Of a stretch of DNA of 64,000 nucleotides, positions 1 through 64,000 are shown one piece after another (position 1 is the stretch's first letter; every line of letters starts with the position of its first letter). This DNA comes from Bispira polyomma. Its lineage: Eukaryota. The stretch lies in contig OZ287753.1 in assembly GCA_965649765.1 (NCBI GenBank), positions 19,220,001-19,284,000 of the forward strand, in the 5' to 3' direction. The notes under the pieces were generated by a model, which did no database searches, had not been told where the DNA came from, and saw nothing but the letters and a program-made list of their open reading frames with translations. A program made the translations under genes and the position numbers.

Positions 1-256
1 ACTTATTATGTGTACTCAGTCCATAAGATAATATATGAAGTGTGAAGACATATGGAAAAGAATAAATTTTCTCTAATAACAAATTTTATTGAATACACAA
101 CTTGTTTGGGATGACATAACAATAATATTAAAAACTACTAAGACAAGTTAGAAACTACTAACAGACACATAACATACTGTACACAGCTAAAGAGGTTAAG
201 TAGGAAAGACCTTACTTTAAGGTAACCGTATCCTAAACTAAGTGGAAACTCACAAT

Positions 257-447: not shown

Positions 448-645
448 ACATTAAACCTTAAGCACCCTTAGCTGACTAAGGTGGGTGTTTTCCTTTAGGA
501 TTACTTTACAACGTGTGAGCCTAAGACTAACCCGGCCTTAGAAAATTTATACCTATTTTAAACTTTTATACTTTGTATATCCCTATAGTGGGTAGCATTT
601 AAAATCCGTTTGTGTTATAATTGCCAAACACAAATTGTTGTTGTA

Positions 646-1686
646 TTAATGTTGTAGAATTATCTTTTTAAATGCTTGTGGTACAGCACTTGCTGCCTTG
701 GGAGTTGAATTTAAATAGGCCCAGATGGCATCGCTTCGCCAGTTGTCATGTACTTTCAGCTTGTCTAAGGAAAGGTTATTGTTGAAGGCCAAAGCAGCCC
801 CACTTCTACGAAATGTATGGAACCCATACTCAGAGGGTTCAAGTCCCATTTGTATTATCAAGGTTTTAAAAATACTTCTAGCCTTGCTAGCTGTAAGGAT
901 TGTAAGCTTACTACTATTATAGATTTGGAAAAGAGGTTGCTCAGGAGCCAGTTTCAGAAATTTTGTCATTTTCCTAACAGCACTTACAGGACACAACTTT
1001 GAACCTTTTAATTCTGGTAACTGTACCACATGATATGCACCAGAGGTCTGCATATTCTTTGCATGTTTTTGAATTAAATGTAAGCCTGGTTGACCATACA
1101 CAATATCCGAAAGTACAGGCAATCTCGATTTATCATAGGAAGAGGCCAGAGGTGATACCAATGAGGCTAACCTAAGAAAGCCAAAGAATGCGACAAGGAA
1201 CAATGCCTGAAATACAGGAGCATTTGAAAGCAGACCAGTTCTACTTATGAGCTCAGTTAACATTTGAATTGAAATGACCCCTTTAATTTTTAGTAACAGA
1301 GGAGCATTAGTTTGTGTAGATTTAATCATCAGTTGTAACTTTCTACTTTTCAAAGCCACAATTGGCCAACCAAACAATTGAAAATAGTGGTTCAAGACTG
1401 CTAGTACATTTTGAATAGAAGAAGCTCTAAGTCCATTTTTACACAATAGTTCAACATAAGCCAATACAGACGAGTGTTCATGAGGGATAGGCACATCATA
1501 GGCAACCACAAAAGTGACAAACTGTCTAAATTTAGCAGCATAAGCTGCAGCAGTCCTGGGCCTCAGAGCAGCTGCAATCCGCTTGTCCACTTGCTCCAAC
1601 AGCATATCCAGGGGTTTATTTTCTGAAAATACAACAGACGGAGAGCAGAATTTTGCTTTATTTCCGCCTGTTGCCTGCTGAACCAA
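646..1686 (-). CDS. Tyrosine recombinase of the retrotransposon
   Basis: FFGFLRLASL (Arg), HAKN (Lys), HTFRRSGA (HxxR), HDNWRS, AIWAYL (Tyr). The ORF start is TTG, so the true start is uncertain. Confidence 0.92.
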   Translation of the reverse strand: MVQQATGGNKAKFCSPSVVFSENKPLDMLLEQVDKRIAAALRPRTAAAYAAKFRQFVTFVVAYDVPIPHEHSSVLAYVELLCKNGLRASSIQNVLAVLNHYFQLFGWPIVALKSRKLQLMIKSTQTNAPLLLKIKGVISIQMLTELISRTGLLSNAPVFQALFLVAFFGFLRLASLVSPLASSYDKSRLPVLSDIVYGQPGLHLIQKHAKNMQTSGAYHVVQLPELKGSKLCPVSAVRKMTKFLKLAPEQPLFQIYNSSKLTILTASKARSIFKTLIIQMGLEPSEYGFHTFRRSGAALAFNNNLSLDKLKVHDNWRSDAIWAYLNSTPKAASAVPQAFKKIILQH

Positions 1687-1879
1687 ACGAATTCAGACAG
1701 CAGGGCAGGCAGTATACATGTCAAAGATACTTATGCATTTAAGCAGTATGACACCCAGTATATAATGAAATAGGGAACTTCACAAAACCTTGCAGGTGGC
1801 AATAAAAATTGACATATTATTTCGAACTTATTCCAAATTATACAATCGCCTGCAAGGTTTAAAGGAACAAATTTAGTAT

Positions 1880-4800
1880 CTAAATAAGCCAATTAGGGTA
1901 TAATTCTGCAGCTTTTGACTGCCACCATTCGCATTTATATAAATTTCTAACATAAGGGTTCTCTAAATTCATACTGTAGTTGCACCAGCGAGATAAAATA
2001 TCCGCATAAGTGTTACTTTCACCTTTTATATGTTTAAATTCAACCTGTATATCATAGGAGGCCATTAATAACCAGATACTTCTGGCACATGCCATAAGAA
2101 ATGTATCTTTAATTTTATGTGAATTTAGCACGTTTACTACTGCCAGATTATCACACCAAATTGTGATATACTTTTTATTAAAATGCTTTACCCATGTTCT
2201 TATGGCCAACATGCCATTTCGAAATGTACAATTGTCAAATACAATTTCATATCTTCTGGTATGTCCAAAGTATACACTTTATTGCCATACTTGGCACCCA
2301 CAGCAAATAACGACGCATCGACATATACATGCTCTGTACGGTTACTTTCGTCAATGTGCATTTCTACTGAACCATTAAATTTCTCCAAAAATACATTGAA
2401 CCAATTGATATCCCTATGGAACTCTGGTGATAATTTAATAGTACCTTTTTTAGAGGAGTCCCTAAGAGCTTGTAAAATTTGATTAACAAATAAACGCGCA
2501 GGTTTAATACACCTATGCAAATATAACAATTTGCCAGTGAGTTTTTGCAGTTGATGCTTGGTGGCCGTTGTTTTATAGGTCCACTGTTTACATATTGTTT
2601 TAATTTGTCTAATTTTTTCCTGTGGTATAGTTAGCGTACCCAGAGCCGCGTTTACACAGATACCCATACATACTACCTCCTTTTTAGGGCTTTCGAGTTT
2701 AGAAATGCTAATAGGGATACCAAGTTTTTCCAACAAAACACAGAGAGAGTTGTAAGCACCCTGCGCATGCGCAGGATCCTCTACTCCAATGAAATCGTCG
2801 ATATAATTTATAAGCCAGTATCTTTGTGTTTCCATAAGGTGCCTTATACTGTCTGTTACTAATTGGCAAATTCCCGCCCCCGTACGAAATCCAAATGGAA
2901 GCGCGATGTCAATAAAGTTTTTATCTTTTCAGATAAGCCCCAAAACAGGGTAATCTAGTGGATCTATACGCAGGTTTCTAAATGCCCTCTTAATGTCCAC
3001 CTTATATATGAGTGCATTATGTCCTAAATCATTGATACGTTTTACTATATGATCTACTGTAGGGTAGGACAATTTATATTCCATCCCCATATAAACATCT
3101 TTTTGAACACTGTCGTTAACAGACATTCCATGTGGCCATGATAAATCTATGATTACTCTGGTGGCCCCATCAGGTTTAGGTCTAGCCATCATAGGTGAAA
3201 CATGTGTTTTCTTGAAAGGAAACTTAGAAAACGGCCCAATAATGGCCTCATGTTTAATTTCCATTTCAAAATAATTTTCAACTCCTATTGGTTCCTGAAG
3301 AGCAGATTTATGGTTAACAATATCAGCATTATGGACAAACTTATTATAGTTGATGTCAAGAGGGAATTCATATTCCAAAAAATCACAAATAATTTTGTAT
3401 TTATAGTCTTTTAGGTAAAGACGCCAATTATTTATATTAAGTTGTGAAGGAACCTTGAGTTGAGCGCCAACATAATTGGGTACATTTGCTCTAGCAACAA
3501 TTCCATTTGCCTTAGCCACCCATTCCTTTAAGTTATTATATGCAAGAGCATTGTGTGCAGAACACGTTATGGCTTCCGGAATTCCATACCAATTGAAACC
3601 ATAAACGACATCCTCATGACTTCCATTTTTGCCAATTACGTTGCAAGTGGCAATGTGTGAAACATCAATAGCCATGGGTACATTATGATTTGTTGTACAA
3701 GTTATAAGTTTTTTGTTTTTGCCATTACTTAATTCATAACCCATGTACACATTATGACTTAGTATATCATTAGCCATGTGTGTATTATGACTTATTACAC
3801 TCGTGCTAGAGTTTCCATTTTCCCCATTTCGTGAGTCACAGCCCATATAAACCCCATTTCCTGATATATCCTTAAGGATGTGTGCACTATGACTTGTTAT
3901 ACACATTTTTAAATTTTTATTTTCGCCATCACGCAAGTCATCATCACAGCCCATAAAGGCATTATTATTTGCACTCTCAGTAGGGATGTGTACATTATGA
4001 TTTGTTACACGAACAGTGTACTGTCCATTATTTTTATTACGTGAAACTTTGGGAATGTGTACATTATAAATGCCATTATCACTTATGTGTATTAAATTTT
4101 GTTTGTTGCTTTTAAAAACCATATGGCCTATAGCATTACTTCTTTTAGTTTCACGTACATTATTACTTTCAATGTTAACTATATTTTGTTCACTTGTACA
4201 ACTGGCTTTGTATGTATACATTGTGCCACGTTTGTTCAAAACATGTATACCTGTATTGGTAACAGCTTTTGTATTCATGAAGTCATCACTAAGCTCCCAC
4301 CCTATAAAATCCTGATCTAAATTGTGCTCGACAATTGTTGAATTATATGTATTGTTTATATTTATACTAAAATTCAAAGTTTCCATAAAACCACTAAATT
4401 CTTTAGTAGTATATATAGTGTACCTTTCCATGTCAGTTTTATTTATAAAATCAACATGATTAAAACCATGAGTACTAAAATCTTTAATAGAGTGTACTGC
4501 ACTATATTCTATACTACTATTGTAATTTGTGTGTGTAAAATTATTAGTACTTATACTATAAGAATAACTGGTTATGCCAGTGTGCACTTTATAGGCTTTT
4601 AACCCATTATCAGTGTCATTGGTGTAAGTTGTGAAAGAAGTATCATAACAGTTGTTTGCGTTTCCTTTATTGAAAACATAATACTCTTGACACGAGGACA
4701 TATCCCATGTGTCATAAATACTTGTATATTCTTCATTTAATGTTTTTTCAGAAAAACCCGTATTGACACTAGTTACTTCACTTGTAGATATATTGGCCAT

Positions 4801-5235
4801 ATTTCTACAACCTCCCCGTCTTATATGGCTGTTCTGCCAAGTATGGATATTGCAAAACCTGCACTGTATATCACGTGTAGCACTATTGTGTGTGTGCAAT
4901 TTTTTTCCCAAGCCACTGATGTAATTGTGGCAAATACAGAATTTTGTATTACTGGTGATGTCCCTTTCTACATAACCCACCACGTATTTTCCTGAGTTAG
5001 AGTTTTTATGTACACGTCTGTCGGCGACAATATTTACTTGTCTAGCACTTTGGTAACTGACCTCATTACCCACGTAGGCATACACAGACCTATAATTTGT
5101 TACATTATATTCACTACTGCCATGTAAATCATTACTGGCCATAAAAGTATATGCTTTATTGCAGGCATGACTGTCATAACCAATACACGTGCTTTTGCTT
5201 TCATTAGTATATACTGTACATGCAAAACTTTCCAT
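1880..5235 (-). pseudogene. pol: long N-terminal extension + reverse transcriptase + RNase H, disrupted
   Basis: ORF 2929-5235 continues in frame past a TGA at 2929-2931 (LGLI*KDKNFIDIALPFGFRTG) into ORF 2200-2835 (NYIDD, YVDAS). A frameshift near 2212 leads into ORF 1880-2212 (WCDN, HIKGESNTYADILSR). Confidence 0.9.
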
Positions 5236-5464
5236 ATCGAGTACTTTAGTATTTCGAGAACTAGTATTTAAATCTACACTCTCTACTACACTATTAATAT
5301 TTTCTAAATACGTGCTTTTCCTATTTTCAAAACTAGTAGTTAAATCTACGTCTTTTGAAATACTGTTTAAACATACTTCATCATAAACTGTTATACCAAC
5401 ATTTTCCCGTAATCTGTTACACTTTATACTTTTAGTGTTTTGAGATGTTAGGTTAATACCTTTT

Positions 5465-6451
5465 TTAAACCTGCTGATTAGGCCTATCTGTGGTTGCGTT
5501 TGCGTTATTTTCCTTTTTCTTTCTCATACAGTTAACTACCCTATGCTCTATTTTCCTGCCTACCACTTTGAAACAATACGAACATGCATGATTGAACATG
5601 ACCCCGTCTTTAATATGATCTTCTGTGAATTTACAAGTATTTTTGTTGTAATACCTACAGATCTCAGCCTTGCTGTCAGTATTACTATCTTTTACATGAT
5701 TTTTTGCAGAAAACCCACAGCTAGCCGGGGTAACTATCCTTTGAGTAGCCCTAGCCCTGACCTTGTCTATTAAATCTGTATTATCCCAATCAAGCTTACC
5801 CTTTTCCATTTCCGTTAGGACTAAGGCATGAGCCTTCTTGGCTGTGGGTAGGGATAGTTCTACTGCGTCTTGCATTAGATTCGTATAATACAATAACATA
5901 TTGTTCTTTCTTTGAGTACTAGTTTCCTCGAGTATAGAAAACAGTAAACCCTGAAACCACTGAGGGGCACTCAGTTCGTCGTAAGTAGGCTGCTTTATGA
6001 CACCTGCTGGGAGGCTACAGTAATCATGAGGCCAGGCAATATTACGTTTAATGACATGCGTACCCGCCCTAAATCGCCCTGATTTAATAACCTTGTCTGA
6101 ATTCGTACCTTTGGCATCAGTACGTGAAGTGTACTGATATGTTCTCAGCCTCTTGTCCACCTCAGCCTGCACACGGGAGTCGGATTTCAGCAAATCCAAG
6201 GATGGCAGCTCAGTCCTGTCTTCCTCCTGACTTCTGTCTGCCTTCGGGGAACTCTGTGCTGACGGGGCGGATCTAGACACTTCTTGTAGTACCAACTTCT
6301 CTTCCTGGTCCTGTAAACGTTTTTCCTGCGAATCTAATCGTTCGGTAATAGCAGCCAGTCCTTTTAAAATGTCTTGTAATGGATCAACTGTATCAGTGTC
6401 TGTTACAGCTTCACTCTGTGAAGTTTGCGTTTTACTACCTACACGTGGCAT
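5465..6451 (-). CDS. gag-like ORF1 with coiled coil and C-terminal Cys/His zinc finger
   Basis: First ATG (MPRVG) at 6451; heptad region ITERLDSQEKRLQDQEEKL; CRYYNKNTC...H...HACSYC...H...C; lies upstream of pol. Confidence 0.85.
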   Translation of the reverse strand: MPRVGSKTQTSQSEAVTDTDTVDPLQDILKGLAAITERLDSQEKRLQDQEEKLVLQEVSRSAPSAQSSPKADRSQEEDRTELPSLDLLKSDSRVQAEVDKRLRTYQYTSRTDAKGTNSDKVIKSGRFRAGTHVIKRNIAWPHDYCSLPAGVIKQPTYDELSAPQWFQGLLFSILEETSTQRKNNMLLYYTNLMQDAVELSLPTAKKAHALVLTEMEKGKLDWDNTDLIDKVRARATQRIVTPASCGFSAKNHVKDSNTDSKAEICRYYNKNTCKFTEDHIKDGVMFNHACSYCFKVVGRKIEHRVVNCMRKKKENNANATTDRPNQQV

Positions 6452-6594
6452 ATCGACAGAGGCCCAGAGAGACAAACACAGTCTAGAGTTTTGTAAAATC
6501 TCCCAAGTTAAAATCCCACGTGTTTAAACTACTCCAATCTGTCTAGTTCTCTCAGGCCACCTCGCTTCAAGTACACACGGCACAACCAGAATAC

Positions 6595-52500: not shown

Positions 52501-55500
52501 GTAGAACCTCTATTATCCAAACTTGTTGGGAGAGCAAGATTTGTTCAGATAATAGAAGGTTTAATAGGAGAGACATTTGAGGGATAACTTTTCATTTTTT
52601 GCACGATTAGAGACATAGTAACACGAAGGCAAAGCCTAAGTGTTTCTAAGCTACAAATTGGTAAAAATTACTGTAAAGCATGCTTTGGAATGTGTTATCC
52701 CTATTTTAACATGACAAATGAACAATATTACCTGATTCCAGCTGTTTTTACTTTAAAATTACGTTGTTAAAGGAACTATTATATCCATTTGGGCATCAAC
52801 TACACTGCAGACGAAATTCGTCTACTTCCGTTCATGTATATACGGTTATTTATAAAATAGCGTTGAGCCAATCAGAATTGCTGATACAGCTGTGTCATGT
52901 TAGAATTTAGTATATACATGTATAACAAAAGCCTGGCACATGCAAAAGTACTTGAGACATGTTTAAAAGAATTAAATAATGTCCATGATTTGCAGTCAAA
53001 CACATAGCAAAATCTGGTCTAGAACAACAAAATAAGATTTCATGAACTTTGTGATAGCTGAATTCACTAAAACACACACCACAGATCACTTCCGGCATTA
53101 AATACCAGACTCAGGTATCATTTTCACACAGGGAAGTCTGGTGTACTAACAATCTCCTATTGCAAGGAACTGAAGGGCAACAAAATAATATTTTAGAGTG
53201 TTGACTGTTTGCTGACAGACATTGGTTCTGGGAGTAACAATTTACATCAACTGCTTGCCCTTAAAGTATGAGTAGATCATGATACATAAATCGCCTATAC
53301 ATCCATCTGCAGCAGTAAAAGTAAATAATACCACACAAAAAATATATTTGATTTAAGTGAGGTAAAATAACTTTTATATCCAACAACACAGCAAACCACT
53401 GCAATTAAAACATTCTGTGAGAAAAGGCAGGATAAAAACAGAGATAAACTATTATGAAGTATTTGTAAATATAAATACATCATTCCAGTGTCTGCAACAT
53501 TTGGTACAATTCTCAGTGAAAACTTGCTTAAATATTAAACTTTATTAAAGATTTTTTTTGCAGTTCCAATGCAATTATTATACCAATAGCCAATCAACTA
53601 TAGCCGTGCAATTTTACAAGATGCCAAGTCTTTAAAAATCTAAACTGGAGGAACAATAAAAGTACAAACACACACACATAAAATCAAAACCACACAACAC
53701 TCTCAAAGTAACCCAAATATCAAAAAAAAATACCTTCTGCGGATACTGTGAAAAATAAAATTAAAAAAACATTTTTAGAAACATAATTAAAGAAAAAGCC
53801 AAACAAAAGCATAGTAATTATAACTTGATTATAAATTAATTAGATATTATTAACCATCCAACTGAAAGGAACTGTCCGTGGCGCTATTTGGCTATGTAAT
53901 TAAGTGGTACTTGTTTGGTGATCAAAAGTTTCCTTTAGAATATAATCTTTGTGAGAAGTCGTACTGTTTCAAAAACAAGGGTTCCCTTAAATACTTTATA
54001 TCCTGTAAGGATGTGTTAATGTTTAAATACAAGCTTTAATTAATACAGATCCATGTTTTAGTGAGTAAATGAGGCAAAGCTTTTAAGTAACAACGTAAAA
54101 ACTAAGAAAATGTAACACATTTAAAGTGAAATTTGTGATTATAGATCCGATTGTTACATGGGTCAAATCTTTCTGATAATAAAATATGTTAGGATGAACA
54201 AAATGCACCTAAAATGTACAATTTGTTTCTTATAGACGATTAGGTGATAGTATTGCACTGCATAGCGACATTCTAAGCATCTTTGTTAATGCAGTTGTTA
54301 GTATCATTCAAAATGGAAAGAAAGCATCAAATATGCGTATGGTTCTTCTGTCTGTGTTAATATTTAAAATGCTATAGTTAGCGTCTAGTTTTAAAACGAA
54401 GGCTACTGCACAGTATACACAATATTCATGAATATATATAATTACCGTCTCTTTCATCTACACAACACAGGGTATACATAAATATCAACAACATAACCAA
54501 GCAGTAAATAAAACACAAGCTAAATACCCCTATCTCAAGTAAACTGGAGATAAAACATGTCCACTTGAGATGATAATTATAAATATGAACAAAAATAGAT
54601 ATATATATATATTATCCAAAGATTATAACAATTTTTGTTATATATTTACCCATTTAGTTAATGGCTAATGAGTGACATTTCCAAAAAGAAAATATTTTAA
54701 GTTAACATTATGCTATTAATCTACACAAACGTCCATTGCAGCTACATTTTGATAACTGGTAACATAATAGCTTCTTTTCACTTTTTGGCAATTTCAAAGT
54801 AACAAAATAAGATTCTGTTTATTAACTGAAAATAACAGCATTAAAAAACTAAAACAACAGTCCTAAAATACAAAGAACACTGATTATAAGTTAACTGGCA
54901 ATTAGAGCAGCTATCAAAAATGCTACATTTATCAACACCCTAGCATTATATAAAGTTTACCATGCTATTTACATCTGGTTTTATTAGTAAAATCATAGCA
55001 TTTACTGCCATTTAAGCAGCATGTGTTATATTTGTAAGACCTCTTGAAGATTATGTACCACCATCACTGTACTTAATTTCATACTGATAATTTGAATACC
55101 TTAAGTTTCAGCCTTAACATTTCCAGTTCACTAAAGTGGAAAAACATTTTTACTAAAACGCTAAACAAAATTGTTACTTAAAGTCTAAACATTAAAATGA
55201 ATCCATATATTTACTTACACAAACATGTATAAGGGTTGAGACTCTACTGGGTGGGAGTAAACATATAATACATGTATACGTATTCAAATGCTATTTGTTC
55301 TAACAGAAGAAGAAACAGCAATTTGTTGAGACCATGTAGCTAAAGGGGAAGGGGACATGTATCCAAAATGCATCTAACATTTATTTTAGGTTTATATTCA
55401 CAGCTGAACAAACATTTACACAGTTAAGTTTGCCTTAAATCTGCAGACTCGGTAACATATGAAAATAAAATAAAATACGGTCATAACGTATTAAAAGTAC

Positions 55501-58500
55501 TTTGTTAATAGAGTTTAAACATTTAAAGGAGTAAGAACAGAAAATATAGGGTTAAAATTTGAACGTGTGCGTTAAATTTACATATTAAAATCATTTTAAC
55601 AAAACTTCTGTGCAATGTACGGAAATCAACAGATTGTGTGCTAGTTTAGGAATGTATAAATATACATAAGTTTGTCCAACTGTGAGTAAAATAACAGCGA
55701 AGTATTTATAAAAGATTCCAAGATCATTGTTCACTCGTCAACTGTACAAGAACAACATGTCAACTGATATGGCCTGAAGTATTGGACTTTGTGACTTTCT
55801 GTGACTTTCAAAGTCAATGGTTCACCTTAAGTGAGGAAACTACCCTGCATAATTACATCTTAACGGATGATATTGGTTTCAAATTATAAGGGCCTCTGAC
55901 AAACTCTTACTCTAACATCTGTCAGAATATTAATTAAAGGTCAAAGTCACTTCTCCAAATCACTGTTTAGTCCAGAAATAGTTCCTTAGATATGCACTGA
56001 TAACATGTTTAAAGTCAAAGTAAACTTTCAAGATCCTACATAAAACTAAGGTCATACATCCATTGCACAACTACCTTATTTTATATTTCTACCATTTCAG
56101 TTAGTATTTCTACCAAAGCATAAAGTTCTTATCTGACATATTTGCAGGTGTGGGTGTTTTAAGTTCAAGGTCAACATCCTGATGCAAACAGTCAAATTGG
56201 GTCAAACTACAAATACACTGTATTTAATTTTGAGAAAAATCCCTCATTATTTATTATTGACAGTTTGACGTTTTGCTTCTACTATAACAGCTTGACATGT
56301 AAAATATGTGTATGGAGCCTGCCACTCAATTCAATTACTCTATATGTTGTTTACTATACTGCCTCTGGTTATAATTCGGCCTTCAGTTGTAAATCGGCCG
56401 TCACATTTTAAATGGTAATTATTGACAATCTTGGTACAAAATTGACCATAGGATTCAAGTAAAACAATTACAATAATATTATTCAAGGAAGTAAAATATT
56501 GTTAGGCCAATACATTAAATTAATTTGAAGTTATAAGACATTTATTGTATGGTGGCCGATTTATAACAGGTGGCCGATTTATGACCACAAGCAGTATAGA
56601 TTTCATACAGCATTCTGGGCAGGTTCTAAACACTGCTAGTGAGAAATAAGTACTGCTTTCAAACTTGGAATCTTTCTAAATATTTAAAAACAGAAATGTG
56701 CACAGGGATGTAAACAACCAGCTGATGGAGGTACCTGGTCAATTTCCTATGGTCAAAACAGATGTAGAAACAAACATTAGGCTTAGATATATATGCTGAT
56801 ATATACAGATATATATGTATATGTACAAAATATGCTATTGTTGTCAAAATGTAATCTGCAGTCAAACCCCTCTAAGTAAAACTCTGTTAAGTCTATTGCT
56901 TTTTTTTGGAGAAAAGTTTGTAGTCTCACAAAAGCCTCCTCTTTAAAAATATACCCTGTTAACGGTGGAAATCCTGCTTAAGTAGAGCTATTTCTCCTGG
57001 TCCCTTGATGTTTGACTTAAAGGGGTTCAACTGTATATCGAGTTTTTAGGATGTGACCTTGTGATAATGGTCTCAATTTAACGAGGTAATGACACACACA
57101 AAAGTACATACAGCTATTATAAACAGACTCTGCAATATTGGTCTTTGAAATAAACATAATCGCATTCATCATTATGTAACATAGTTCAAATGCATATCCT
57201 CGACAATAGATCAAATGAAAATACATGTATATTATTTGTTGTAGGAGTTTTATGTAACAACCATATCACTATGACATGAGGTGGTTGGGGTAATTGTGAA
57301 GCCTAACCAATTGCAGACCACGTTTGAGATGACCCAGACCCAAGACTAACCAGTTTAAAGAGGAATGTTGAAGCTGATACAAACAACATATTATATAAAC
57401 AAATCAAAGAACTGATAATTGACAAATATCAAGGAGAACATCGGAAGTATTGAGTAGAATGTATATCTATTTAGGGTTTGTAATTCTTATAAGTAATTTA
57501 TCCTTTTACAATGGCAGCCACTTCTAAATGGAATAGACTTCCTCCTGAACCCTAGCCTACCCCTCTAATGGTGGTTTTATGGCCCAACATTCATTGTTTA
57601 TCAGACTCTTATAATAAGAGCTTTAGATCATTACTTGGGTATTCTTCATACTGCAGTGGCTCGTATATGTTAGTTGTGTCAGGTTACTAAGGAGAATTTG
57701 AAATTGTAATACATGTAAAAAGCTTATTAGAAACTATACTGCTTCAGTTATATGAATACGTTTTTAAAGTTATTTGCTCTTTGAGAAGGAAGAATATATG
57801 TAACATACTTAATATCTCTGTTATTGTAGATGTAACCCTTTTTTTACTTTATATACATTTTAATTTTACTAATTGTACATTATTTATATGGACCTTAACT
57901 TTGTGTCTGAAATAAAGTTTACATGATCCATCTATCTATTGGATACAGACTGGACAATGCCATAGGACTAATTGTTTTCTGGTTATGGCTCTGGAGACTA
58001 TTTATAGAGTATTAGGTGCTATAAATAGAAGCTACTATACATTACATAACAAATAGAAGTTGCACTCACAGTGATGTTGTAGTAGACAACTCCACCTGCC
58101 CCAGAGTCAGGATCAAAGGTGTTCACCTGGTACACAGTCGTACCAATTAGTGCATCCTGGAGAAACAGAAGATACAGTAGAATCTCTATTATCTTATTGT
58201 CATGAATTTAACATCATGCTACTGTAAAACCAGTAGTAAACAAAATAGAAAAACTGAAAGGATGAAAAATTACCATATACTTTCTATCAATTTGCAATGT
58301 GTTAGTACTACTTGTAGAATTAAAAATGATTATATATGAGGGAGTTTTAAAATGCCAGGAAGCCACCGAGAGATGTTATAGTGACTCTATAGCTAGCCAG
58401 CGCCGTATTCAAAAACATTCTTAAAAAGGAATTCTTAGAATTTTTTAGTCTACACCAATCAGGTTATTTGAAACAATATTTTCAGCCAATCAAATTGATT

Positions 58501-61500
58501 AAGACAAAAATATGCCAATTAAACCCTTTGTAAATACTAGCCATGGAACCTTGTAGCCGGTGTAATAGTATGAGCATATTGTGTGATAGCTTCAGCTACA
58601 TGTATCACAATTAAAGTACCCAGCATCTCTACTATGTACAAGGTCCACATATACTTTCGCTGTTTTGTTCGCACAAAGACAGACATTTAGACATAGCATT
58701 TTAACCCAAGATCTTTGGGGACCTTGAAACGTAACAATCAATATCGTAGGGAAAATATGTTGCAATAGTGATTGTGATGTCATTTTCTGTGTTGGTATCG
58801 CTAAGTTATGTTTCTAAAAATCGTTCCAAATTCATCACACTTGGTCATACTATGTCATAACGCAACACAACGTCACAAACAAGTAATTATAAGTGCATGG
58901 CATGCATCAACACTTTCCTAAGTTTGTTAAACGGCTCACTAATGTAGTAAATACTGCTAGATAATGCTAGAAATAAGCAGTTCTGACCCAAATATTTCTA
59001 ACAGTTTAAAATAATTGCGACAGGGGACTAAATGTAGATGATTCTGTAACAAAATATAACTTAACGAAACAAACACACATGGAATACTGACTATGAGATA
59101 CTTTATGTCGAGTTTTCAAACGTTGTACAGTCATGGCTCTTAAAAGGAGAGGTGTGACCGTTACATTACTCACATTACTAGCCAGGTGTTAGAACACAAA
59201 CTGCTGCATCTTTTAAAAGTTACTATATGTGTATATATTTTATATTGTGCACTCCATGAGCTGCATATTGCAAAAATATGCCCAGTGCTGTCATAAATTT
59301 GGAACTTCAAAAAAGATCTATTAGTACAATGCACTTTTCTCACCTCTGGAATTTCAGCACGATATGGCAAGTTAATGAAGGTTGGGTGGTTGTCATTGAC
59401 ATCAACTATTATGATTTTAAACGTTCGCCTGACTGCCTGGTTTTTGCTGTCATCTACTTCTATTGTGACATCATAACTTTCAACATCCTGAAAATAGAGT
59501 TTTTGGTTTAAATAAGTTAAATAAAAATAAAAGAGGCATTTTAGTGAAAAACAGTCTAAAACATACAAAATGTTGAAGAGTGAAGATCAGTTCATAAAAC
59601 AACATGAATTACTTAATTTTACACGGGTAAATCACATGATATTATTATGACCCCATAATAATATTATGTAATTTCAGTACCAAATTATAGAAATTAAATT
59701 ACAATGAAAAAAACGACTTAAGTTAAGGTAAGACTAACTGAAAAATAATTTAAAATAAAGTTAGTGACCTAAGGTTACCTTATGACTTTTCTCCTTTAAC
59801 ACTTTTTCAATAATATTGACATAGTTTTACTTTTCATAAGCTGTTACTCTTTTTCGCAAATGTGCCCCAGTAGCTGCTACTCTACTTGAAAATGGATTCA
59901 AAGTTTACTTAAAACAAAGCATTAACAAGACCAAAACTAAGAAATTACTGAAACTTACAGACAATAAATGTTTTACATCAGCTGATCTTTTTTCCCGAAG
60001 CATCTGGCCAAGGCAGCCATCTTGTTTTTTTCAAAATGAGACTTTTGTCTTAAGTTTTGTCTCATAAAAGTTTTTGTTTAGCCCATTTTGTGAATCCCAA
60101 CTTAAGACAAATTTTAGCTGAGACAAAGTCTTAAGTTTAAAACTGGTCTGAAGCACAAATTTAGAACATAAAGGGTAAAGGGGCACTAGGGTAAGGGTGC
60201 CAGGTAAGAGGGCCTCATCACACAAATACATTAATCCCAGTTGGGGTAGAGGGTTGGTAAGGACCAAATATAGTACAGTTCTTGACATCTGCGTCTCTCT
60301 GTACTATTTGCCTCATTATCCAAGCCTAACCAATAAACAATACTGAACTCCATATTTTTGGCAGAGTGTTGTCTCTGACTAAAGTGCCTGAAAACTGGGG
60401 TGGACTTTTGATGGGTTTGGGGGAGCCACAAGTTTTTGTACAGCTTCTTCCAGTAGGCTCAGAGTATGATGACTCAATCTGTTGCCAGGTATACGAGTAC
60501 CTGGCTCTGGAGTATTGAATGTTGAACTTTATCCCACTTATAGGTGGTTAAGTGCTGGGATGGAGCTGTGTCACTTGCACTCATGGTTATATACCCAAGT
60601 GAATAATATAAAAGTTTGTTTGAACTTGGTGCAGGTGACAGGAGTAATCTGACTGCCTTATATATTAATATTGGTTAATATATTTGGAACTCCTATGGGT
60701 ATTCTCATCAGAGGCTGATCCGGCGGAGCAATTGAGCTGAGTAGAGCTCAATTCAGCTCTACTCAGCTCAATTGCTCTGCCGGATCAGGCGGAGTTGGGC
60801 GGAGTTCATTTTACCACCTTAAGGCAAAAAAGGTGATTCTAATACAGCCTCTGATGAGAATACCCATAGGAGTTCGAAATATATTAACCAATATTAATAT
60901 ATAAGGCAGTCAGATTACTCCTGTCACCTGCACCAAGTTCAAACAAACTTTTATACAAATTTAGAACATGTTGTGAATCTTACCCTGGAAGAGTTAGTAC
61001 ACTTGCCATTATCTAGATAGGTCACAGGGCATGATGGCCAAATATCCCCACCTAGGGACCAGTAATACATCTCAACCACAATCACAGTGATTAATAACCC
61101 TAGTTCTATGGAAGACGGTGGTTTAGAACCAGGAACCTAAGGCACCTAATCACCTAGCAGAGGGCGATGGGTCCAGCCCCATAAAGCCTAGCATCCTCAA
61201 CATATGGGTCAGAGGCGGTTGGAGGGACTAGACCCACCCTCCACTTGGTCCTGGGTTCAAGCAGTAAACCAGGTAAGTTACTGTTAGTGACCACAGCAAG
61301 TCAGAAGTCCAGCAATCAAAGGAAGTTAAAGTAAGCAAGTACCTACCATTAAGTAACCTCAGCACCATGAAAAAGGTAACAGCAGAGAGCATCAATTAGC
61401 ACACTTTGGAGTCACACTCACCTCTTTATCATAAATGATTTCAGACTTTATAGCCTGCACTTTCTTGTCACTAGTAGGGTCCAAGGATACAATACCCTGA

Positions 61501-63120
61501 GCAATCTCTCCAACGATGGTAAACTGCAAGTCATTCTCATCTCCACTATACGAGACAATTACATCACCAATGTATGTGTCTAAAAGTAAAGACACATATA
61601 CACAAACATATATAGAATTCTACTGTCAGTTTTGTAAGAAAATCTGTGTGTGTGTGTGGGGGGGGGGGGGGGGGCTTGGACAATGTTCCAGGGGGGGAGG
61701 GGGGGGGGCTGTTATTTAGGAATTAAAGAAGATAATGTTGATATGTGGGAGTTTAACCTTTAAGTTAAAAAGTAAAATTATAGTATGTATCAATATGTAT
61801 CATACAATTAAACTATCCACACAATATCTGGGTACTATCTATCTCTATGATATTATTATGCGTCATTCAAATTTTCTATTTTTTATCAATACTGTAATTA
61901 AATTCTACCCTGTTTAGTAGAAATTCTCCTGGTCTTTGAGATTTGGTATGAATGGGTTCAAGTGCATGTGAAAATAAAATACAGTTGAACCCCTTTAAGT
62001 CAAACCTCAACTGTTCTACTTCTACTTAACCAGGATTTCCACACTCAACGGGTAAAATTAGAAGAAAATATCTTATATTAAGTTAACAAGAGTTCTACTT
62101 AAGAGTCTAGTGACGTAAACACATAAAACGATCGCCGATAACCACGTTATGTGTGCTTGAGCTTCTCAGAAACTACACAACCTTTTCTTTGTGGCCTTAA
62201 ACCCATTTTATAGATAACATATTTACATTTTCATCAGTAGAAATAATAAAGAATGACTTATATTTTAATTATATACTAATTCATATATTTTAAGTATCAT
62301 TTTAATAGATATCTTGAGACATACAATACATATAGCAGTGTGTCATATTGTAACTAAAATGGGTAATATTTTCAAAGTACATGCTTCACTAACGTGACAC
62401 AATTCATATACCAACACGGGATCAATACTGAAGTATTGTACATGAATAGAAAAAGGAAAATATCAGCATTATTTTGAATGAATTTGTTTTTCAAGAAAAG
62501 CACAAAAACTAGATAATTTTAGAAAAACTTTAAGGTTACACTGCTGTAAATAGAAAGATACTTAGTTTTCTTTGTTTATACAAAATAAGGAGACATATTT
62601 AAAAATGTAATTCATTGAAAACAATATACACGTTTTTTAAAGTTGTGTAGCCTATATAATGTCTTCCTTTATGCTGGATCAATACTTGTATTATGTCACA
62701 ATAGAAGGGGCTCTCTGCGAGAAATGTTTACAAATATGACGTTCCACCATAGATTTCAAATTGTGTGACGTCACAATACAGGAATCGTTGAATGGGTGTT
62801 TTTATAGTTTTATAGCATAGTATTAACCTTTTAAATAGTTTGGATGTATAAAAATGGTTTAGAAACCATACTAAAGTGTACTTTACAGTCCTTATATTTG
62901 GTATACAGACTAGAAATGACTCTCGTAAAAATAGCATGCTTTATCCCCAGCCCGTTTATGTGTTTACGTTATTAAAGCCTTAAAGGGGTCGACTGTAAAC
63001 AAGCTCTGTTGTTTGATTTCAATAAGTATTGAAGGGTTCCCTTACCTACTGGTTCATTTTCATCAATGAAGTAGATATGGTTACTGCCTACAAATGTGGG
63101 TGGTAAGGTGTTGCAACTTC
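13068..63120 (-). CDS. Cad87A: Cad87A/cadherin-23-like non-classical cadherin (14 EC repeats, membrane-adjacent domain, TM, cytoplasmic tail); multi-exon, first coding exon outside window
   Basis: 34 exon positions join in frame to ~1930 aa; 13 DxND-type linkers, LDRE/LDYE and DxD motifs; cytoplasmic RKLKAATAMAFG, PGTNKHSYEGSNPIW, SLDEN and C-terminal ATEI resemble Cad87A/CDH23-type tails. Orthology not tested. Confidence 0.85.
16294..16356 (-). CDS. Cadherin cytoplasmic exon (SNPIWLEQYENGWPRETDTD)
   Basis: CAG / GTGGG, phase 2-2. Confidence 0.88.
18120..18300 (+). mobile_element. Non-autonomous Helentron/HINE-like element 3' part; related end at ~11950-12070
   Basis: (ACAA/ACAG)n microsatellite then AAAACAT..CCTTGGCRGARGTAA terminal hairpin, seen twice. 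Confidence 0.5.
20673..20739 (-). CDS. Cadherin cytoplasmic exon (SHDTGLNHVHGVPGTNKHSYE)
   Basis: CAG / GTAAG, phase 1-2. Confidence 0.9.
21245..21757 (-). mobile_element. 3' end of an L2-like LINE
   Basis: SITPVLKKLHWLPV...FRKKLKTHLY C-terminus, 3' stem-loop and AATAAA tail. Confidence 0.85.
23326..23366 (-). CDS. Cadherin juxtamembrane exon (YKRKLKAATAMAF)
   Basis: TAG / GTAAG, phase 2-1. Confidence 0.9.
24096..24387. mobile_element. MITE, Harbinger-like
   Basis: AGGGCCCTTACAGACCGCC / GGCGGTTTGTAAGACCCT imperfect TIRs, TA-rich flanks. Confidence 0.6.
25194..25336 (-). CDS. Alternative transmembrane exon B (PQSLAISTSAEVTRWSMSSSLYLMVAIVGLLIVIFVVTCVVYYKRQH)
   Basis: TAG / GTGAGT, 143 nt, phase 0-2, stop-free; hydrophobic helix followed by YYKR. 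Confidence 0.82.
27085..27212 (-). CDS. Transmembrane exon A (PAVVEVSESRVDKTILIGVIAVAVVLAVLIVVICVTAWTCRK)
   Basis: TAG / GTAAGT, 128 nt, phase 0-2; hydrophobic helix followed by basic residues. Confidence 0.88.
27514..27860 (-). mobile_element. Degenerate LINE 3' fragment
   Basis: SYYAASFWNSFPSYIT remnant typical of the LINE ORF2 C-terminus. Confidence 0.5.
28125..28191 (-). CDS. Cadherin exon (LIDKNYIYLEDLFKKYNVMEVL)
   Basis: TAG / GTATG, phase 2-0. Confidence 0.88.
28370..28724. repeat. Degenerate ~32-bp tandem repeat derived from an exon donor site
   Basis: ACTTACTCAA...CTGTTGACA...GGT units, degrading away from the exon. Confidence 0.7.
28720..28788 (-). CDS. Cadherin exon (TDMFIHGIDNKTGEVVPADVLI)
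   Basis: CAG / GTAAG, phase 2-2. Confidence 0.88.
29065..29240 (-). CDS. Cadherin exon, membrane-adjacent domain (IYFLNENQRV...PDAR)
   Basis: CAG / GTATA, phase 0-2. Confidence 0.9.
29709..29948 (-). CDS. Cadherin exon, EC14 (LYATDPDIG...TADVS)
   Basis: CAG / GTGAG, phase 0-0. Confidence 0.9.
30163..30402. mobile_element. MITE family D (GGGGCCGTATTCACAAAAG TIR, Harbinger-like); copy at ~44094-44303, relatives at ~30530 and ~63616-64000
   Basis: TIRs and shared internal sequence between copies. Confidence 0.75.
31018..31196 (-). CDS. Cadherin exon (YWEKEEN...DINDNPPKF...IDLS)
   Basis: CAG / GTAAG, phase 1-0. Confidence 0.9.
31790..31924 (-). CDS. Cadherin exon (GDVVYKSRF...IDRE...DCSS)
   Basis: CAG / GTAAT, phase 1-1. 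Confidence 0.9.
32195..32440. repeat. Tandem copies of an exon 3' end plus donor
   Basis: CACTTACCCACTATGTAATAACAGATCACTGAGTTATTTC, about 5 copies. Confidence 0.9.
32410..32641 (-). CDS. Cadherin exon (LQVRAYDLG...DENDHPP...YYIV)
   Basis: TAG / GTAAG, phase 0-1. Confidence 0.9.
32870..33398. repeat. 40-bp minisatellite (~13 copies) derived from an exon 3' end plus donor
   Basis: AATACACTCACATTGTAATACACCTGTTTTTGCCTCAGTT units. Confidence 0.92.
33374..33562 (-). CDS. Cadherin exon (HEEVG...IDREKQVYYN)
   Basis: CAG / GTGAG, phase 0-0. Confidence 0.9.
34395..34687 (-). CDS. Cadherin exon (SASDQDEG...DVNDHPP...VKE)
   Basis: CAG / GTATA, phase 1-0. Confidence 0.9.
35272..35500 (-). CDS. Cadherin exon (GEMTTTDALDRE...DVNDNAPQF...VIK)
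   Basis: CAG / GTATG, phase 0-1. Confidence 0.9.
36217..36329 (-). CDS. Cadherin exon (TSVTSVYATDRDSGEFG...DNQT)
   Basis: TAG / GTAAG, phase 1-0. Confidence 0.9.
36655..36812 (+). mobile_element. Partial copy of the SINE at 63195-63541
   Basis: Shares CTTGGACAAGGT, ACCCAGGTGTA.AA.TGGGTACCTG and TGGTTGACAAGTGGAAGAACCCAGG. Confidence 0.8.
36914..37170 (-). CDS. Cadherin exon (YYLIEDK...VDHE...DVNDNSPEW...NDTI)
   Basis: CAG / GTAGG, phase 2-1. Confidence 0.9.
38211..38367 (-). CDS. Cadherin exon (TLSITLRDVNDNPPEW...QPV)
   Basis: CAG / GTATG, phase 1-2; duplicated acceptor 120 nt upstream. Confidence 0.85.
38307..38526. repeat. 120-bp tandem duplication of acceptor plus exon 5' part
   Basis: Near-identical blocks 120 nt apart. 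Confidence 0.95.
38786..39000 (-). CDS. Cadherin exon (YRLLDD...LDRE...QNAT)
   Basis: CAG / GTGAG, phase 2-1. Confidence 0.9.
39662..39818 (-). CDS. Cadherin exon (ETVVHVNITDVNNKLPEF...NHLL)
   Basis: TAG / GTAGA, phase 1-2. Confidence 0.88.
39866..40741 (+). mobile_element. ~876-bp non-autonomous TTAA-specific DNA transposon (Kolobok-like), copy 1
   Basis: TTAA flanks, GG..CC termini, ~25-bp TIR GGCTTTAGTAACGTAAACACATAAA. Confidence 0.85.
41020..41640. repeat. ~22-bp minisatellite plus longer copies of an exon 3' end
   Basis: GTATACTGACCAGTTAGTGTTT units; GTGTTCCTCTATCTATGGCCAGTA exon copies near 41090 and 41255. Confidence 0.92.
41590..41811 (-). CDS. Cadherin exon (FQVETVHANDDD...LDRD...DRGTPPLT)
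   Basis: CAG / GTGAG, phase 1-1. Confidence 0.9.
42665..42971 (-). CDS. Cadherin exon (ATDRDLPP...LDYE...DENDEAP...NSAG)
   Basis: CAG / GTAAG, phase 0-1. Confidence 0.9.
43721..44047 (-). CDS. Cadherin exon (ATDKDTG...LDRE...DENDNAP...LVIE)
   Basis: TAG / GTGGG, phase 0-0. Confidence 0.9.
44830..44994 (-). CDS. Cadherin exon (VVARE...DVNDNWPEF...ITNIT)
   Basis: AAG / GTAAG, phase 0-0. Confidence 0.88.
45225..46101 (+). mobile_element. Kolobok-like element, copy 2
   Basis: Colinear with copy 1, TTAA flanks, TIRs. Confidence 0.85.
46162..46323 (-). CDS. Cadherin exon (GDNGKFEL...LDYEKVTQFNFD)
   Basis: TAG / GTAAG, phase 0-0. Confidence 0.9.
46740..46940 (-). CDS. Cadherin exon (TQEDTP...DVNDQTPSF...IDLDK), GC donor
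   Basis: CAG acceptor; AAG|GCATGT donor is needed to give DLDK-GDNG in frame. Confidence 0.85.
47580..47698 (-). CDS. Cadherin exon (LHQFFHINASTG...LDREDP...IGIL)
   Basis: CAG / GTACA, phase 1-0. Confidence 0.88.
48252..48330 (-). CDS. Cadherin exon (GTSVLQVSAMDGDRGVPNPVNYTFTS)
   Basis: CAG / GTAAC, phase 0-1. Confidence 0.9.
48847..48966 (-). CDS. Cadherin exon (DGGYLNSTT...DVQDTAPFF...ENATV)
   Basis: TAG / GTGAG, phase 0-0. Confidence 0.9.
49778..51295. repeat. 50-bp minisatellite, ~30 copies
   Basis: GCACATGTACAGTCAGTCAGGGGAATGACAGTTACTGGTGCTGGTTGGCT units. Confidence 0.97.
51642..51749 (-). CDS. Cadherin exon (TPQGLFVIDQ...VDYEKEKFYQLEITAI)
   Basis: CAG / GTAAG, phase 0-0. Confidence 0.9.
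52005..52482. repeat. 80-bp minisatellite, ~6 copies
   Basis: ACAGTATAAC recurs at 52171, 52251, 52331 and 52411. Confidence 0.95.
53734..53745 (-). CDS. Candidate 12-nt microexon (YPQK)
   Basis: ttttcacag TATCCGCAGAAG gtattt; >70-nt AG-free U-rich tract; phase 0-0. Confidence 0.55.
54446..54457 (-). CDS. Candidate 12-nt microexon (MKET)
   Basis: tgtgtag ATGAAAGAGACG gtaatt; ~60-nt AG-free U-rich upstream tract; phase 0-0. Confidence 0.5.
58070..58156 (-). CDS. Cadherin exon (DALIGTTVYQVNTFDPDSGAGGVVYYNIT)
   Basis: CAG / GTGAG, phase 0-0. Confidence 0.9.
59344..59487 (-). CDS. Cadherin exon (DVESY...DVNDNHPTF...IPE)
   Basis: CAG / GTGAG, phase 0-0. Confidence 0.9.
60652..60718 (-). ncRNA. 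Inverted hammerhead copy with core GAAA changed to CAAA (predicted inactive)
   Basis: Identical to the + copy within the inverted arms except at position 60686. Confidence 0.75.
60844..60910 (+). ncRNA. Type I hammerhead ribozyme, intact core
   Basis: GCCT-CTGATGA-GAATACCCATAGGAGTTC-GAAA-TATATTAA(CCAATA)TTAATATA-TA-AGGC: stems I-III and an AUA cleavage triplet. Confidence 0.85.
61422..61579 (-). CDS. Cadherin exon (DTYIGDV...IIYDKE)
   Basis: TAG / GTGAG, phase 1-0. Confidence 0.85.
62103..62979 (-). mobile_element. Kolobok-like element, copy 3, nested in a family-A MITE
   Basis: Reverse complement of copy 1; TTAA at 62099-62102 and 62980-62983. Confidence 0.85.
63046..63120 (-). CDS. Cadherin exon, start of EC1 (SCNTLPPTFVGSNHIYFIDENEPV)
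   Basis: CAG acceptor, GTAAG donor, phase 1-1. Confidence 0.8.
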
Positions 63121-63194
63121 CTGTGGATTAAAGAAGAAAGACATGTACTTTGTCACATAGCATATATTTCTACAGAATCTATACAGCTACTCTT

Positions 63195-63541
63195 ATAATT
63201 ATAATAATTATCATTTAATATAGCGCAGTTATGAATATCATTTTTATCTAATGCGCTTTGACATTATTACCCCAACCTGGGTTCTTCCACTTGTCAACCA
63301 GTTGTTCGGTTTCAGCTTCCGCAGGAAGTATACTAACCATTCTGCTGCATACACAGCACAAAGATTAACACCCATCAGACGCCAGGTACCCACTTGTACA
63401 CCTGGGTAGTGAGGGACAACTTTGTGTAAAGCACCTTGTCCAAGGGTACAGTCACCAGGACAGCAGCAAGGATCGAACCGGGACCCTGAGATTTTTCAGA
63501 TCCAAAGGCCGACACTCTAACCACTAGGTCACAGAGACCGC
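63195..63541 (-). mobile_element. tRNA-derived SINE, full length
   Basis: A box TGACCTAGTGG, B box GGTTCGATCC, CORE/Deu-like central block, L2-like tail (AAAGCGC...GCGCTATATTAAAT) and AT-rich end. Confidence 0.85.
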
Positions 63542-64000
63542 ACTACTCTTATTACCTAAACCCAGAAAAGAATTTTTGGGTAAAGGTTATAACCCTATAG
63601 TCAAAGGTTAGACTGGGGCCCATATTTATCAGAGGTCTCAAACTTAAGCTCATGTTATTCTCAAAATTACCCTGTTAATATCTTTGTGTACAAGGAAGGT
63701 GACTAAAATCTGACTGTTTATTTGAGTTCCTCGCTGAGAGCTCTATTAAAATGAATGGTAACAAGTGTAGGTAATTCCTATTGAGATTGAAATCTATAAT
63801 GTGGTATTTGATTTTAAGCAGAAGTTTAAGATTAAAACTTTTTGACAAATATGGATCCAGGGGCCGTATTCACTAAAGTTCTTATACTTAGAATAAGAAT
63901 TTTTGGTATTCCTTAAAGTTCTTACACTTAGAATAATTCTTATACTTGGAATTATTCTTAGAAAAATTATTATACTTAGAATTCTTGCTTATTCTTAGAA

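What the first reader, a model, noticed from the sequence alone, without database searches (positions are those of the whole stretch)
60155..60969. Penelope-like insert with an inverted hammerhead pair; only the host-sense copy is core-mutated
Seen: a 785-bp insert between 15-bp direct repeats, containing a GIY-YIG C-terminal remnant and 111-bp inverted arms that differ at one base. The + arm forms a complete type I hammerhead. The single mismatch (60686) changes G12 of GAAA to C in the minus-strand copy, the one transcribed in the cadherin pre-mRNA. Known: Penelope-like elements carry hammerheads in pLTRs that can be inverted, and G12 is catalytic. Inference: loss of self-cleavage may have let the insertion persist in the intron. 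One substitution could be chance, and pairing of the two arms may mask both folds.
Basis: partly seen in the sequence, partly recalled or inferred. Interest (0 to 1): 0.75.

Follow-up and report, generated by a model that had tools for sequence, protein, structure and literature searches.

The report
Ordinary inverted Penelope insert, decayed ribozyme
A young Penelope-type jumping gene sits in a cadherin intron as the mirror-image pair usual for its family, and the one-letter change in the self-cutting RNA motif on the host's strand is likely chance decay, because many family copies carry such changes, intact host-strand copies sit in other introns, and the mirror arm is predicted to block the motif's folding anyway.

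Summary
Observation confirmed: 785-bp insert, 15-bp TSD, GIY-YIG remnant, and 111-bp arms differing only at hammerhead G12 (C in the copy sense to the minus-strand cadherin-23-like intron). The selection idea is not supported. 16 of 115 full copies have a core change, at a per-site rate like non-core positions (p=0.17). Of 9 loci (of 88) placed in introns, 5 others carry a host-sense hammerhead and none is core-mutated (TMEM232, cornichon, AVL9, lectin, kinase/HSP70-like; AVL9 lost stem I). In head-to-head geometry the complement is transcribed first and is predicted to mask the fold by 72-78 kcal/mol. The sample is small, so weak selection is not excluded, and G12C rests on the assembly alone. 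Side result: 31 of 88 loci end at two fixed element sites 440 nt apart, 25 of them with 14-17-bp TSDs, suggesting priming from both target nicks. The scan noted the same sense-mutated pattern in two other genomes; those follow-ups also called it chance.

The parts
60155..60169 (.). Left target-site duplication (15 bp); its inner 7 nt match the element's sequence at the second end site at 6 of 7 positions
   Evidence: D3
60170..60230 (-). 3' terminal ~60 nt after the ORF stop, ending at fixed end site S2, which is also the 3' end of both RT-encoding relatives
60231..60410 (-). GIY-YIG endonuclease C-terminal remnant and stop codon; 87.5% identical to aa 595-650 of the L064 ORF
   Evidence: tblastn E 2.5e-31; L064 ORF has RVT_1 and GIY-YIG
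60411..60584 (-). N-terminal ORF remnant (from the ATG at 60584), joined to the EN remnant across an internal deletion of about 3 kb shared by the family
60653..60717 (-). Host-sense type I hammerhead with G12>C at 60686; distal stem I 5' strand lost; predicted inactive
60715..60788 (.). Inner 37-bp inverted arms and head-to-head junction at the family's 10-nt self-complementary site (99 nt upstream of C3), with a short insertion at the centre
60789..60847 (+). 59 nt present only in the right arm (deleted from the left arm at a CAG microhomology); holds the distal stem I 5' strand
60838..60920 (+). Intact type I hammerhead (C3 at 60851, G12 at 60876, AUA cleavage triplet ending 60903, 9-bp stem III), antisense to the host gene
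60921..60954 (+). End of the right arm at fixed end site S1, about 103 nt after C3
60955..60969 (.). Right target-site duplication
   Evidence: junction contig with 0 differences in 3 of 3 runs
61422..61579 (-). Upstream flanking exon of the cadherin-23-like host gene
   Evidence: splice signals, phase 2/0; no Pfam hit
59344..59487 (-). Downstream flanking exon (end of the first cadherin repeat)
   Evidence: tblastn E 8.6e-8 to P0211, 2.7e-6 to P0230

Best explanation
This is one copy of a young, non-autonomous Penelope-like retrotransposon family inserted head-to-head in a cadherin-23-like intron, and its G12C change is likely neutral decay rather than a selected safeguard. Shown: the family (about 1270-bp unit: 5' region, hammerhead, ORF start, deletion, GIY-YIG end), the TSD, the two fixed end sites, and the background rate of core changes. 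Inferred: a related autonomous Neptune-like RT/EN nicked both target strands 15 nt apart. Each 3' end primed cDNA on element RNA, one at S1 and one at S2, and the two cDNAs were joined at the self-complementary 10-mer. G12C, three other private substitutions and the 59-nt deletion arose during copying or afterwards. Predicted: in the host pre-mRNA the complementary arm is made first and zips up the hammerhead as it emerges, so the motif would be largely silent even with G12 intact.
For: Background: 9 of 100 stem-intact copies have a core change. 3 of the 100 listed (of 108) have U16.1>A. 16 of 115 full copies in 88 loci have a core change; per site, core 21/1265 vs non-core 90/7632, Fisher p=0.17. 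The sense arm has 4 private substitutions in 555 nt, so P(one hits 11 core bases) = 0.08. Counterexamples with a core-intact host-sense copy: TMEM232 intron, 0 differences in 78 nt, exons of one protein on both sides; cornichon intron 1, an inverted pair with both cores intact; probable C-type-lectin and kinase/HSP70-like introns. In the last, the antisense copy is the damaged one (G10.1>C), and its segmental duplicate lost the antisense copy by rearrangement. Sense 1 of 6 vs antisense 0 of 7 core-mutated, p=0.46. Folding: with the inverted arm P(hammerhead stems) is 0.000 and the gap is 72 (plus) or 78 (minus) kcal/mol, already 66 kcal/mol when the motif has just been transcribed. 19 of 88 loci carry full hammerheads on both strands. 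A Penelope-like hammerhead showed no cleavage without the element's protein in vitro (PMC11167929, text read).
Against: Both lesions that cripple a ribozyme here (G12C and the deletion) fall in the sense copy, while the antisense arm has no private substitution in 200 nt. The AVL9 sense copy also lost its stem I 5' strand, so 2 of 6 sense intronic copies look dead. Two unplaced cases lean the same way: both arms upstream of a G-alpha-q first coding exon carry U16.1>A, and L109 has G5>A sense to a nearby exon. The TMEM232 and lectin sense copies are themselves predicted about 3 kcal/mol away from the active fold, so they may be slow cutters. Only 9 of 88 loci could be placed in introns. G>C is a transversion, so CpG deamination does not explain it. 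Xenopus retrozymes are reported as depleted in introns (10.64898/2026.07.22.740005, passages).
Confidence: 0.8

Rival explanations
1. Selected inactivation: an active sense hammerhead would cut the cadherin pre-mRNA, so only an allele with a dead sense copy persisted.
For: Two independent lesions in the sense copy and none in the antisense hammerhead. The AVL9 sense copy lacks stem I. The isolated plus motif folds well as a monomer with a 9-bp stem III, unlike minimal metazoan PLE hammerheads (PMC4209133, passages). Retrozymes are depleted in Xenopus introns (10.64898/2026.07.22.740005, passages).
Against: 0 of 5 other sense intronic copies are core-mutated, against a 14% background. The masking duplex is predicted in either direction. 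The case was picked because it looked like this (ascertainment). From recall, not from a call: exon tethering can let splicing proceed across a cleaved intron (Dye 2006, seen only as a reference-list entry in PMC5834221), though fast ribozymes can abort processing (Fong 2009, recalled).
Confidence: 0.13
2. The asymmetries are scars of palindrome instability: a 204-bp near-perfect palindrome was broken by a deletion and by repair errors in one arm, regardless of ribozyme function. This is compatible with the best explanation and would set the timing as post-insertion.
For: The deletion lies 37-96 nt from the centre, at a microhomology, and is unique to this locus. The duplicated locus L138/L139 shows a post-insertion rearrangement that removed one hammerhead from an inverted arm.
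Against: An RT template jump across the local hairpin explains the deletion equally well. The arms also differ at a site polymorphic in the family (T in 15, C in 83), which suggests two templates.
Confidence: 0.35
3. G12C or the deletion is an assembly or sequencing error in a hard palindromic region.
For: No listed contig piece of 3 runs carries the C or spans the junction.
Against: Single-copy variants of a high-copy repeat are easily dropped from such contigs, and 9 pieces were not shown. Outer junctions are exact. Other family pairs assemble with identical arms.
Confidence: 0.05

Closest known systems
Canonical EN+ Penelope-like insertions with an adjacent inverted pLTR, tail and TSD (Pen2a_Av, PMC3846280; Fig. 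2 scheme of PMC8557442)
   Same: Head-to-head inverted arrangement, palindrome at the junction, TSD, AT-rich target, hammerhead upstream of the ORF start, internal microhomology deletions.
   Different: TSDs are 14-17 bp here (8-10 bp in the A. vaga cases read). The two ends differ by 440 nt between fixed sites S1 and S2, not by a 30-40-bp tail. Many pairs of arms share no sequence.
Neptune/Nematis-type PLEs (C-terminal GIY-YIG with a CX2-5CxxC linker; PMC8557442)
   Same: [quoted passage not shown]
   Different: The window copy is a non-autonomous deletion derivative. No tree was built to separate Neptune from Nematis.
PAc (Poseidon of Anolis; PMC11167929)
   Same: In vitro it cleaves and extends both strands at AT-rich DNA and starts RT at internal RNA sites downstream of the hammerhead, matching S1.
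   Different: Its two start sites are adjacent (the tail) and non-homologous to the target. Here the second site is the post-ORF terminus and shows short microhomology. Its hammerhead is minimal and protein-assisted; this one has a 9-bp stem III.
Non-LTR retrozymes (PMC7229834; 10.64898/2026.07.22.740005)
   Same: Non-coding, type I hammerhead, tandem arrays (12 copies at C7:61.48-61.50 Mb), PLE-derived.
   Different: Unit is about 1270 bp rather than about 300 bp and keeps ORF remnants; most copies are dispersed inverted insertions; circular RNA not tested.

Membership tests
EN+ Penelope-like element (non-autonomous derivative) | Homology to an ORF with PLE-type RT and C-terminal GIY-YIG | tested here: met
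   Remnants 74-88% identical to the L064 ORF ends. L064 has RVT_1 (E 8.7e-8) and GIY-YIG (E 1.2e-5); its homologs share that domain order.
EN+ Penelope-like element (non-autonomous derivative) | pLTR-type direct or inverted repeats, partial tandems | tested here: met
   1270-bp tandem period; 46 of 88 loci hold both strands.
EN+ Penelope-like element (non-autonomous derivative) | TSD at AT-rich target | tested here: met
   15 bp here; 14-17 bp in 25 of 31 S1/S2 loci.
EN+ Penelope-like element (non-autonomous derivative) | Hammerhead motif in the pLTR | tested here: met
   also upstream of the L064 ORF.
EN+ Penelope-like element (non-autonomous derivative) | Optional 30-40-bp tail at one end | tested here: not met
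   Ends fall at +97..111 and +535..553 from C3, 440 nt apart. The tail is described as optional, so this does not exclude membership.
Neptune clade | CX2-5CxxC linker between RT and EN | tested here: met
   CX5CxxC found in the L064 ORF; shared with Nematis per PMC8557442.
Neptune clade | RT phylogeny with named Neptune references | not tested
   No named reference sequences among the listed hits.
Type I hammerhead ribozyme (plus copy) | Core CUGANGA/GAAA/NUH with three stems, stem I open | tested here: met
   Constrained fold equals MFE at -12.0 kcal/mol.
Type I hammerhead ribozyme (plus copy) | Rfam gathering threshold | tested here: not met
   34.2 vs 56.3 bits for RAGATH-1-hammerhead; no other hammerhead model at E<=5.
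Type I hammerhead ribozyme (plus copy) | Self-cleavage | not testable with these tools
   Needs an in vitro assay.
Type I hammerhead ribozyme (minus copy) | Invariant G12 | tested here: not met
   C at 60686.
Non-LTR retrozyme | Short tandem unit with a hammerhead in consecutive units, expressed as circRNA | tested here: inconclusive
   Family has tandem arrays, but this locus is an inverted pair; RNA not examined.

The most novel reading that the evidence does not exclude
This Neptune-like family integrates by double-ended priming. Both nicked target strands prime reverse transcription on element RNA at two fixed sites 440 nt apart, one just after the hammerhead and one at the post-ORF terminus, and the two cDNAs are joined head-to-head. 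That would explain PLE inverted insertions without self-priming on an antisense template. It would also mean the geometry itself silences any hammerhead that lands sense in an intron.
Probability: 0.45. Interest if true: 0.5.

Novelty: new member of a known kind. Interest (0 to 1): 0.2.

Why it matters
As a single locus it matters little: it is a decayed copy of a known kind of element. If orientation-specific selection were real, it would show that PLE hammerheads cleave host pre-mRNA in vivo, which is an open question. This family is a good test bed (over 130 near-identical, monomer-competent hammerheads), but the present sample shows no such signal. The family's two fixed insertion ends with 14-17-bp TSDs give a direct genomic readout of where a Neptune-type RT starts, which bears on the unresolved PLE integration mechanism.

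Tried and rejected
Rfam scan of 55000-64000: only a sub-threshold hammerhead hit; the miRNA hits are the inner palindrome. Pfam on the 75-aa remnant alone: nothing. Idea that G12C or the deletion marks a subfamily: rejected, each is unique in the assembly. Looking for an empty allele: no joint skipping the insert among contigs of 3 runs, 2 samples, 1 study; contigs show presence, not absence, so no conclusion on fixation. Confirming G12C in contigs: inconclusive. Sequencing-run search: no RNA holder listed, so expression and splicing were not examined. CpG explanation: G12 lies in the only CpG of the arm, and C11.1 and G12 are each changed in 4 of 115 copies, but this change is G>C, so the argument is weak. 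Intron placement failed for 79 of 88 loci: flanks of 5-15 kb, a home-made exon finder and Pfam on 63+130+54+12 candidates; candidates that looked like transposon ORFs or repeated earlier ones were left out of these Pfam calls. Not counted because exons were found on one side only or placement was unclear: G-alpha-q, trefoil, IQ, VWA, zinc-finger, CCN, Ig, TPR and L109 loci. Three C14 loci, the C7 array and part of the unlisted 1-2-mismatch copies were not fetched. Fold-back self-copying as the general origin of the inversions: disfavoured because arms often share no sequence (L100: 42 nt from S2 plus 196 nt to S1), though not excluded for this locus. Paper search for 'Penelope-like' + 'twin priming' + 'inverted' gave 2 papers, seen as listings only and not on PLE mechanism; 'Neptune, Penelope-like, tail, target site duplication, inverted' gave 2. 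These searches cover only the held library; bioRxiv supplements are closed and the supplements of the PLE papers were not opened, so the two-site pattern may be in print.

Full report
Observation. The 15-bp direct repeats, the 785-bp insert and the 111-bp arms are as described. The only difference between those arms is 60686/60876: GAAA in the plus copy, CAAA in the minus copy. The plus motif has core CUGAUGA/GAAA, an AUA cleavage triplet, a 9-bp stem III and an extended stem I, and its constrained fold equals the minimum-energy fold when isolated. Rfam gives a sub-threshold hammerhead hit only. Two things were missed. The inversion continues inward for 37 bp. The sense arm also lacks 59 nt (60789-60847 in the other arm), deleted at a CAG microhomology, which removes the distal stem I strand; this junction and G12C each occur once in the assembly. 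Neither could be confirmed in contigs of three public runs, whereas the outer junctions were.

Host gene. Cadherin exons run on the minus strand through the window and are collinear with cadherin-23-like proteins of other invertebrates. A signal-peptide exon lies about 1 kb beyond the window. The insert is in the 1.9-kb intron between exons 61422-61579 and 59344-59487, with compatible phases. The upstream exon has no Pfam or tblastn hit of its own. So the minus hammerhead is host-sense.

Family. The hammerhead has 136 copies within 2 mismatches over 45 nt, 85 of them exact. The unit is 1270 bp: a 5' region, the hammerhead, the ORF start, an internal deletion, the GIY-YIG end and a short terminus. 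Two relatives encode RT followed by GIY-YIG; L064 has a CX5CxxC linker, the mark of Neptune/Nematis elements in PMC8557442 (passages seen). Both have broken reading frames. No tree was built.

Insertion anatomy. I fetched 88 loci including the window. In 31, one end falls at site S1 (about 103 nt after C3) and the other, inverted, at site S2 (about 543 nt after C3); 25 of these 31 have a 14-17-bp TSD, against 6 of the other 57 with a repeat of 13 bp or more. Three pairs of loci are duplicates of each other, so the independent count is at most 28. S2 is also where homology ends in both RT-encoding relatives. Many S1/S2 insertions have arms with no shared sequence, and only 11 of 31 carry full hammerheads on both strands. 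This fits priming from both target nicks better than fold-back copying (inference). In vitro, the Penelope-like PAc protein cleaves and extends both strands and starts RT internally (PMC11167929, parts 1-2 of 4 read). The published reading of head-to-head PLE junctions is self-priming on an antisense template (PMC3846280, passages). In the window both arms stop at the family's self-complementary 10-mer, a natural place for two cDNA ends to anneal (inference).

Test 1, background rate. Among 100 copies with intact flanking stems, 9 carry a core change. 3 of the 100 listed (of 108) have U16.1>A. In the fetched loci 16 of 115 full copies have a core change; per-site rates are 21/1265 core and 90/7632 non-core (p=0.17), and one deleted copy supplies 5 of the 21. 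The sense arm here has 4 private substitutions in 555 nt, giving an 8% chance that one hits the core. The event is unremarkable once the case has been picked for looking striking.

Test 2, other introns. Nine of 88 loci could be placed in introns. Firm, with Pfam or tblastn support on both sides or collinear exons: cadherin, TMEM232, AVL9, WDR36, enoyl-CoA hydratase. Near firm: cornichon (exon 2 and last exon by Pfam; exon 1 by script pattern; the CNIH4 label is recalled). Probable: C-type lectin (E 0.054 on one side), kinase/HSP70-like (HSP70 motif recognised by eye; could be two genes), EF-hand gene. Six have a full host-sense hammerhead. Only the window's is core-mutated. AVL9's keeps the core but lost stem I at the inversion junction. 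TMEM232, cornichon, lectin and kinase/HSP70-like are intact. Seven antisense copies have no core change; one has a broken stem II pair. 1 of 6 vs 0 of 7 gives p=0.46. Against my reading: 2 of 6 sense copies look dead; both arms upstream of a G-alpha-q first coding exon carry U16.1>A; L109 has G5>A sense to a nearby exon; and the TMEM232 and lectin copies are predicted about 3 kcal/mol from the active fold. In Xenopus, retrozymes are depleted in introns, although 42-44% still lie there and orientation was not examined (10.64898/2026.07.22.740005, part 1 and passages).

Test 3, folding. In a head-to-head pair the complementary arm is transcribed before the hammerhead in either direction. On the natural sequences, all three stems have probability 0.000 once the arm is present. 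The active fold costs 72 kcal/mol on the plus transcript, where the motif is wild-type, and 78 on the minus transcript; the gap is already 66 when the motif has just emerged. These are equilibrium predictions; local kinetic folding could allow some cleavage. Metazoan PLE hammerheads were weak in vitro (PMC4209133, passages), and PAc's needed protein (PMC11167929). G12 is the general base (PMC2553840, passages), so the minus copy is very likely dead, but that loss would change little.

Verdict. A real, young PLE insertion of the family's commonest architecture, with a neutral-looking core mutation (confidence 0.8). Selection against a sense ribozyme remains possible (0.13) and is testable with an annotated genome. 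Earlier scan notes report the same pattern in two other genomes and reached the same view; I did not check them, and they share the ascertainment bias. Other papers were seen as search listings only, except PMC7229834 and PMC5834221 (passages). The family's two fixed ends are the most interesting by-product. Interest 0.2; new member of a known kind.

Noticed in passing
88 family loci across G000 (L070-L164, window): 31 insertions end at two fixed sites 440 nt apart (S1 after the hammerhead, S2 after the GIY-YIG stop), both ending in a TTTAT motif; 25 have 14-17-bp TSDs.
   Followed up: partly
window 60812-60834 (+): A short hairpin upstream of the hammerhead contains a second AAGGCA, a possible decoy for stem I; with the native 5' flank P(stem I) falls from 0.76 to 0.03. 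This segment is what the sense arm deleted.
   Followed up: partly
L072/L073 (G000:C3:73539345-73540811): Inverted family insertion about 570 bp upstream of the first coding exon of a G-alpha-q-like gene; both hammerheads share U16.1>A. Promoter or 5' UTR intron not resolved.
   Followed up: partly
L138 and L139 (G000:C8:23.27 and 23.30 Mb): Segmental duplicate carrying the same insertion and TSD; in one duplicate the inverted arm was rearranged and its hammerhead lost. Host looks like a kinase followed by an HSP70 (HSPA12-like, recalled label) domain.
   Followed up: partly
G000:C7:61484123-61496034: Tandem array of 12 intact hammerheads with mixed 922- and 1269-bp periods, retrozyme-like.
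   Followed up: no
window 646-6523 (-): DIRS-like retrotransposon with gag-like, RT/RNase H and tyrosine-recombinase ORFs downstream of the cadherin gene.
   Followed up: no
window 60044-60142: A different high-copy repeat with 26-bp inverted arms lies directly left of the TSD.
   Followed up: no
window 61115-61294: Contigs of all three runs show a second haplotype or paralog with several substitutions and a 70-nt skip (61183-61254) just right of the insert.
   Followed up: no
G000, hits at 79% identity: A second young subfamily with identical GIY-YIG remnants; contig depth suggests the stem II variant at 60861 (C) is commoner than the window's.
   Followed up: no
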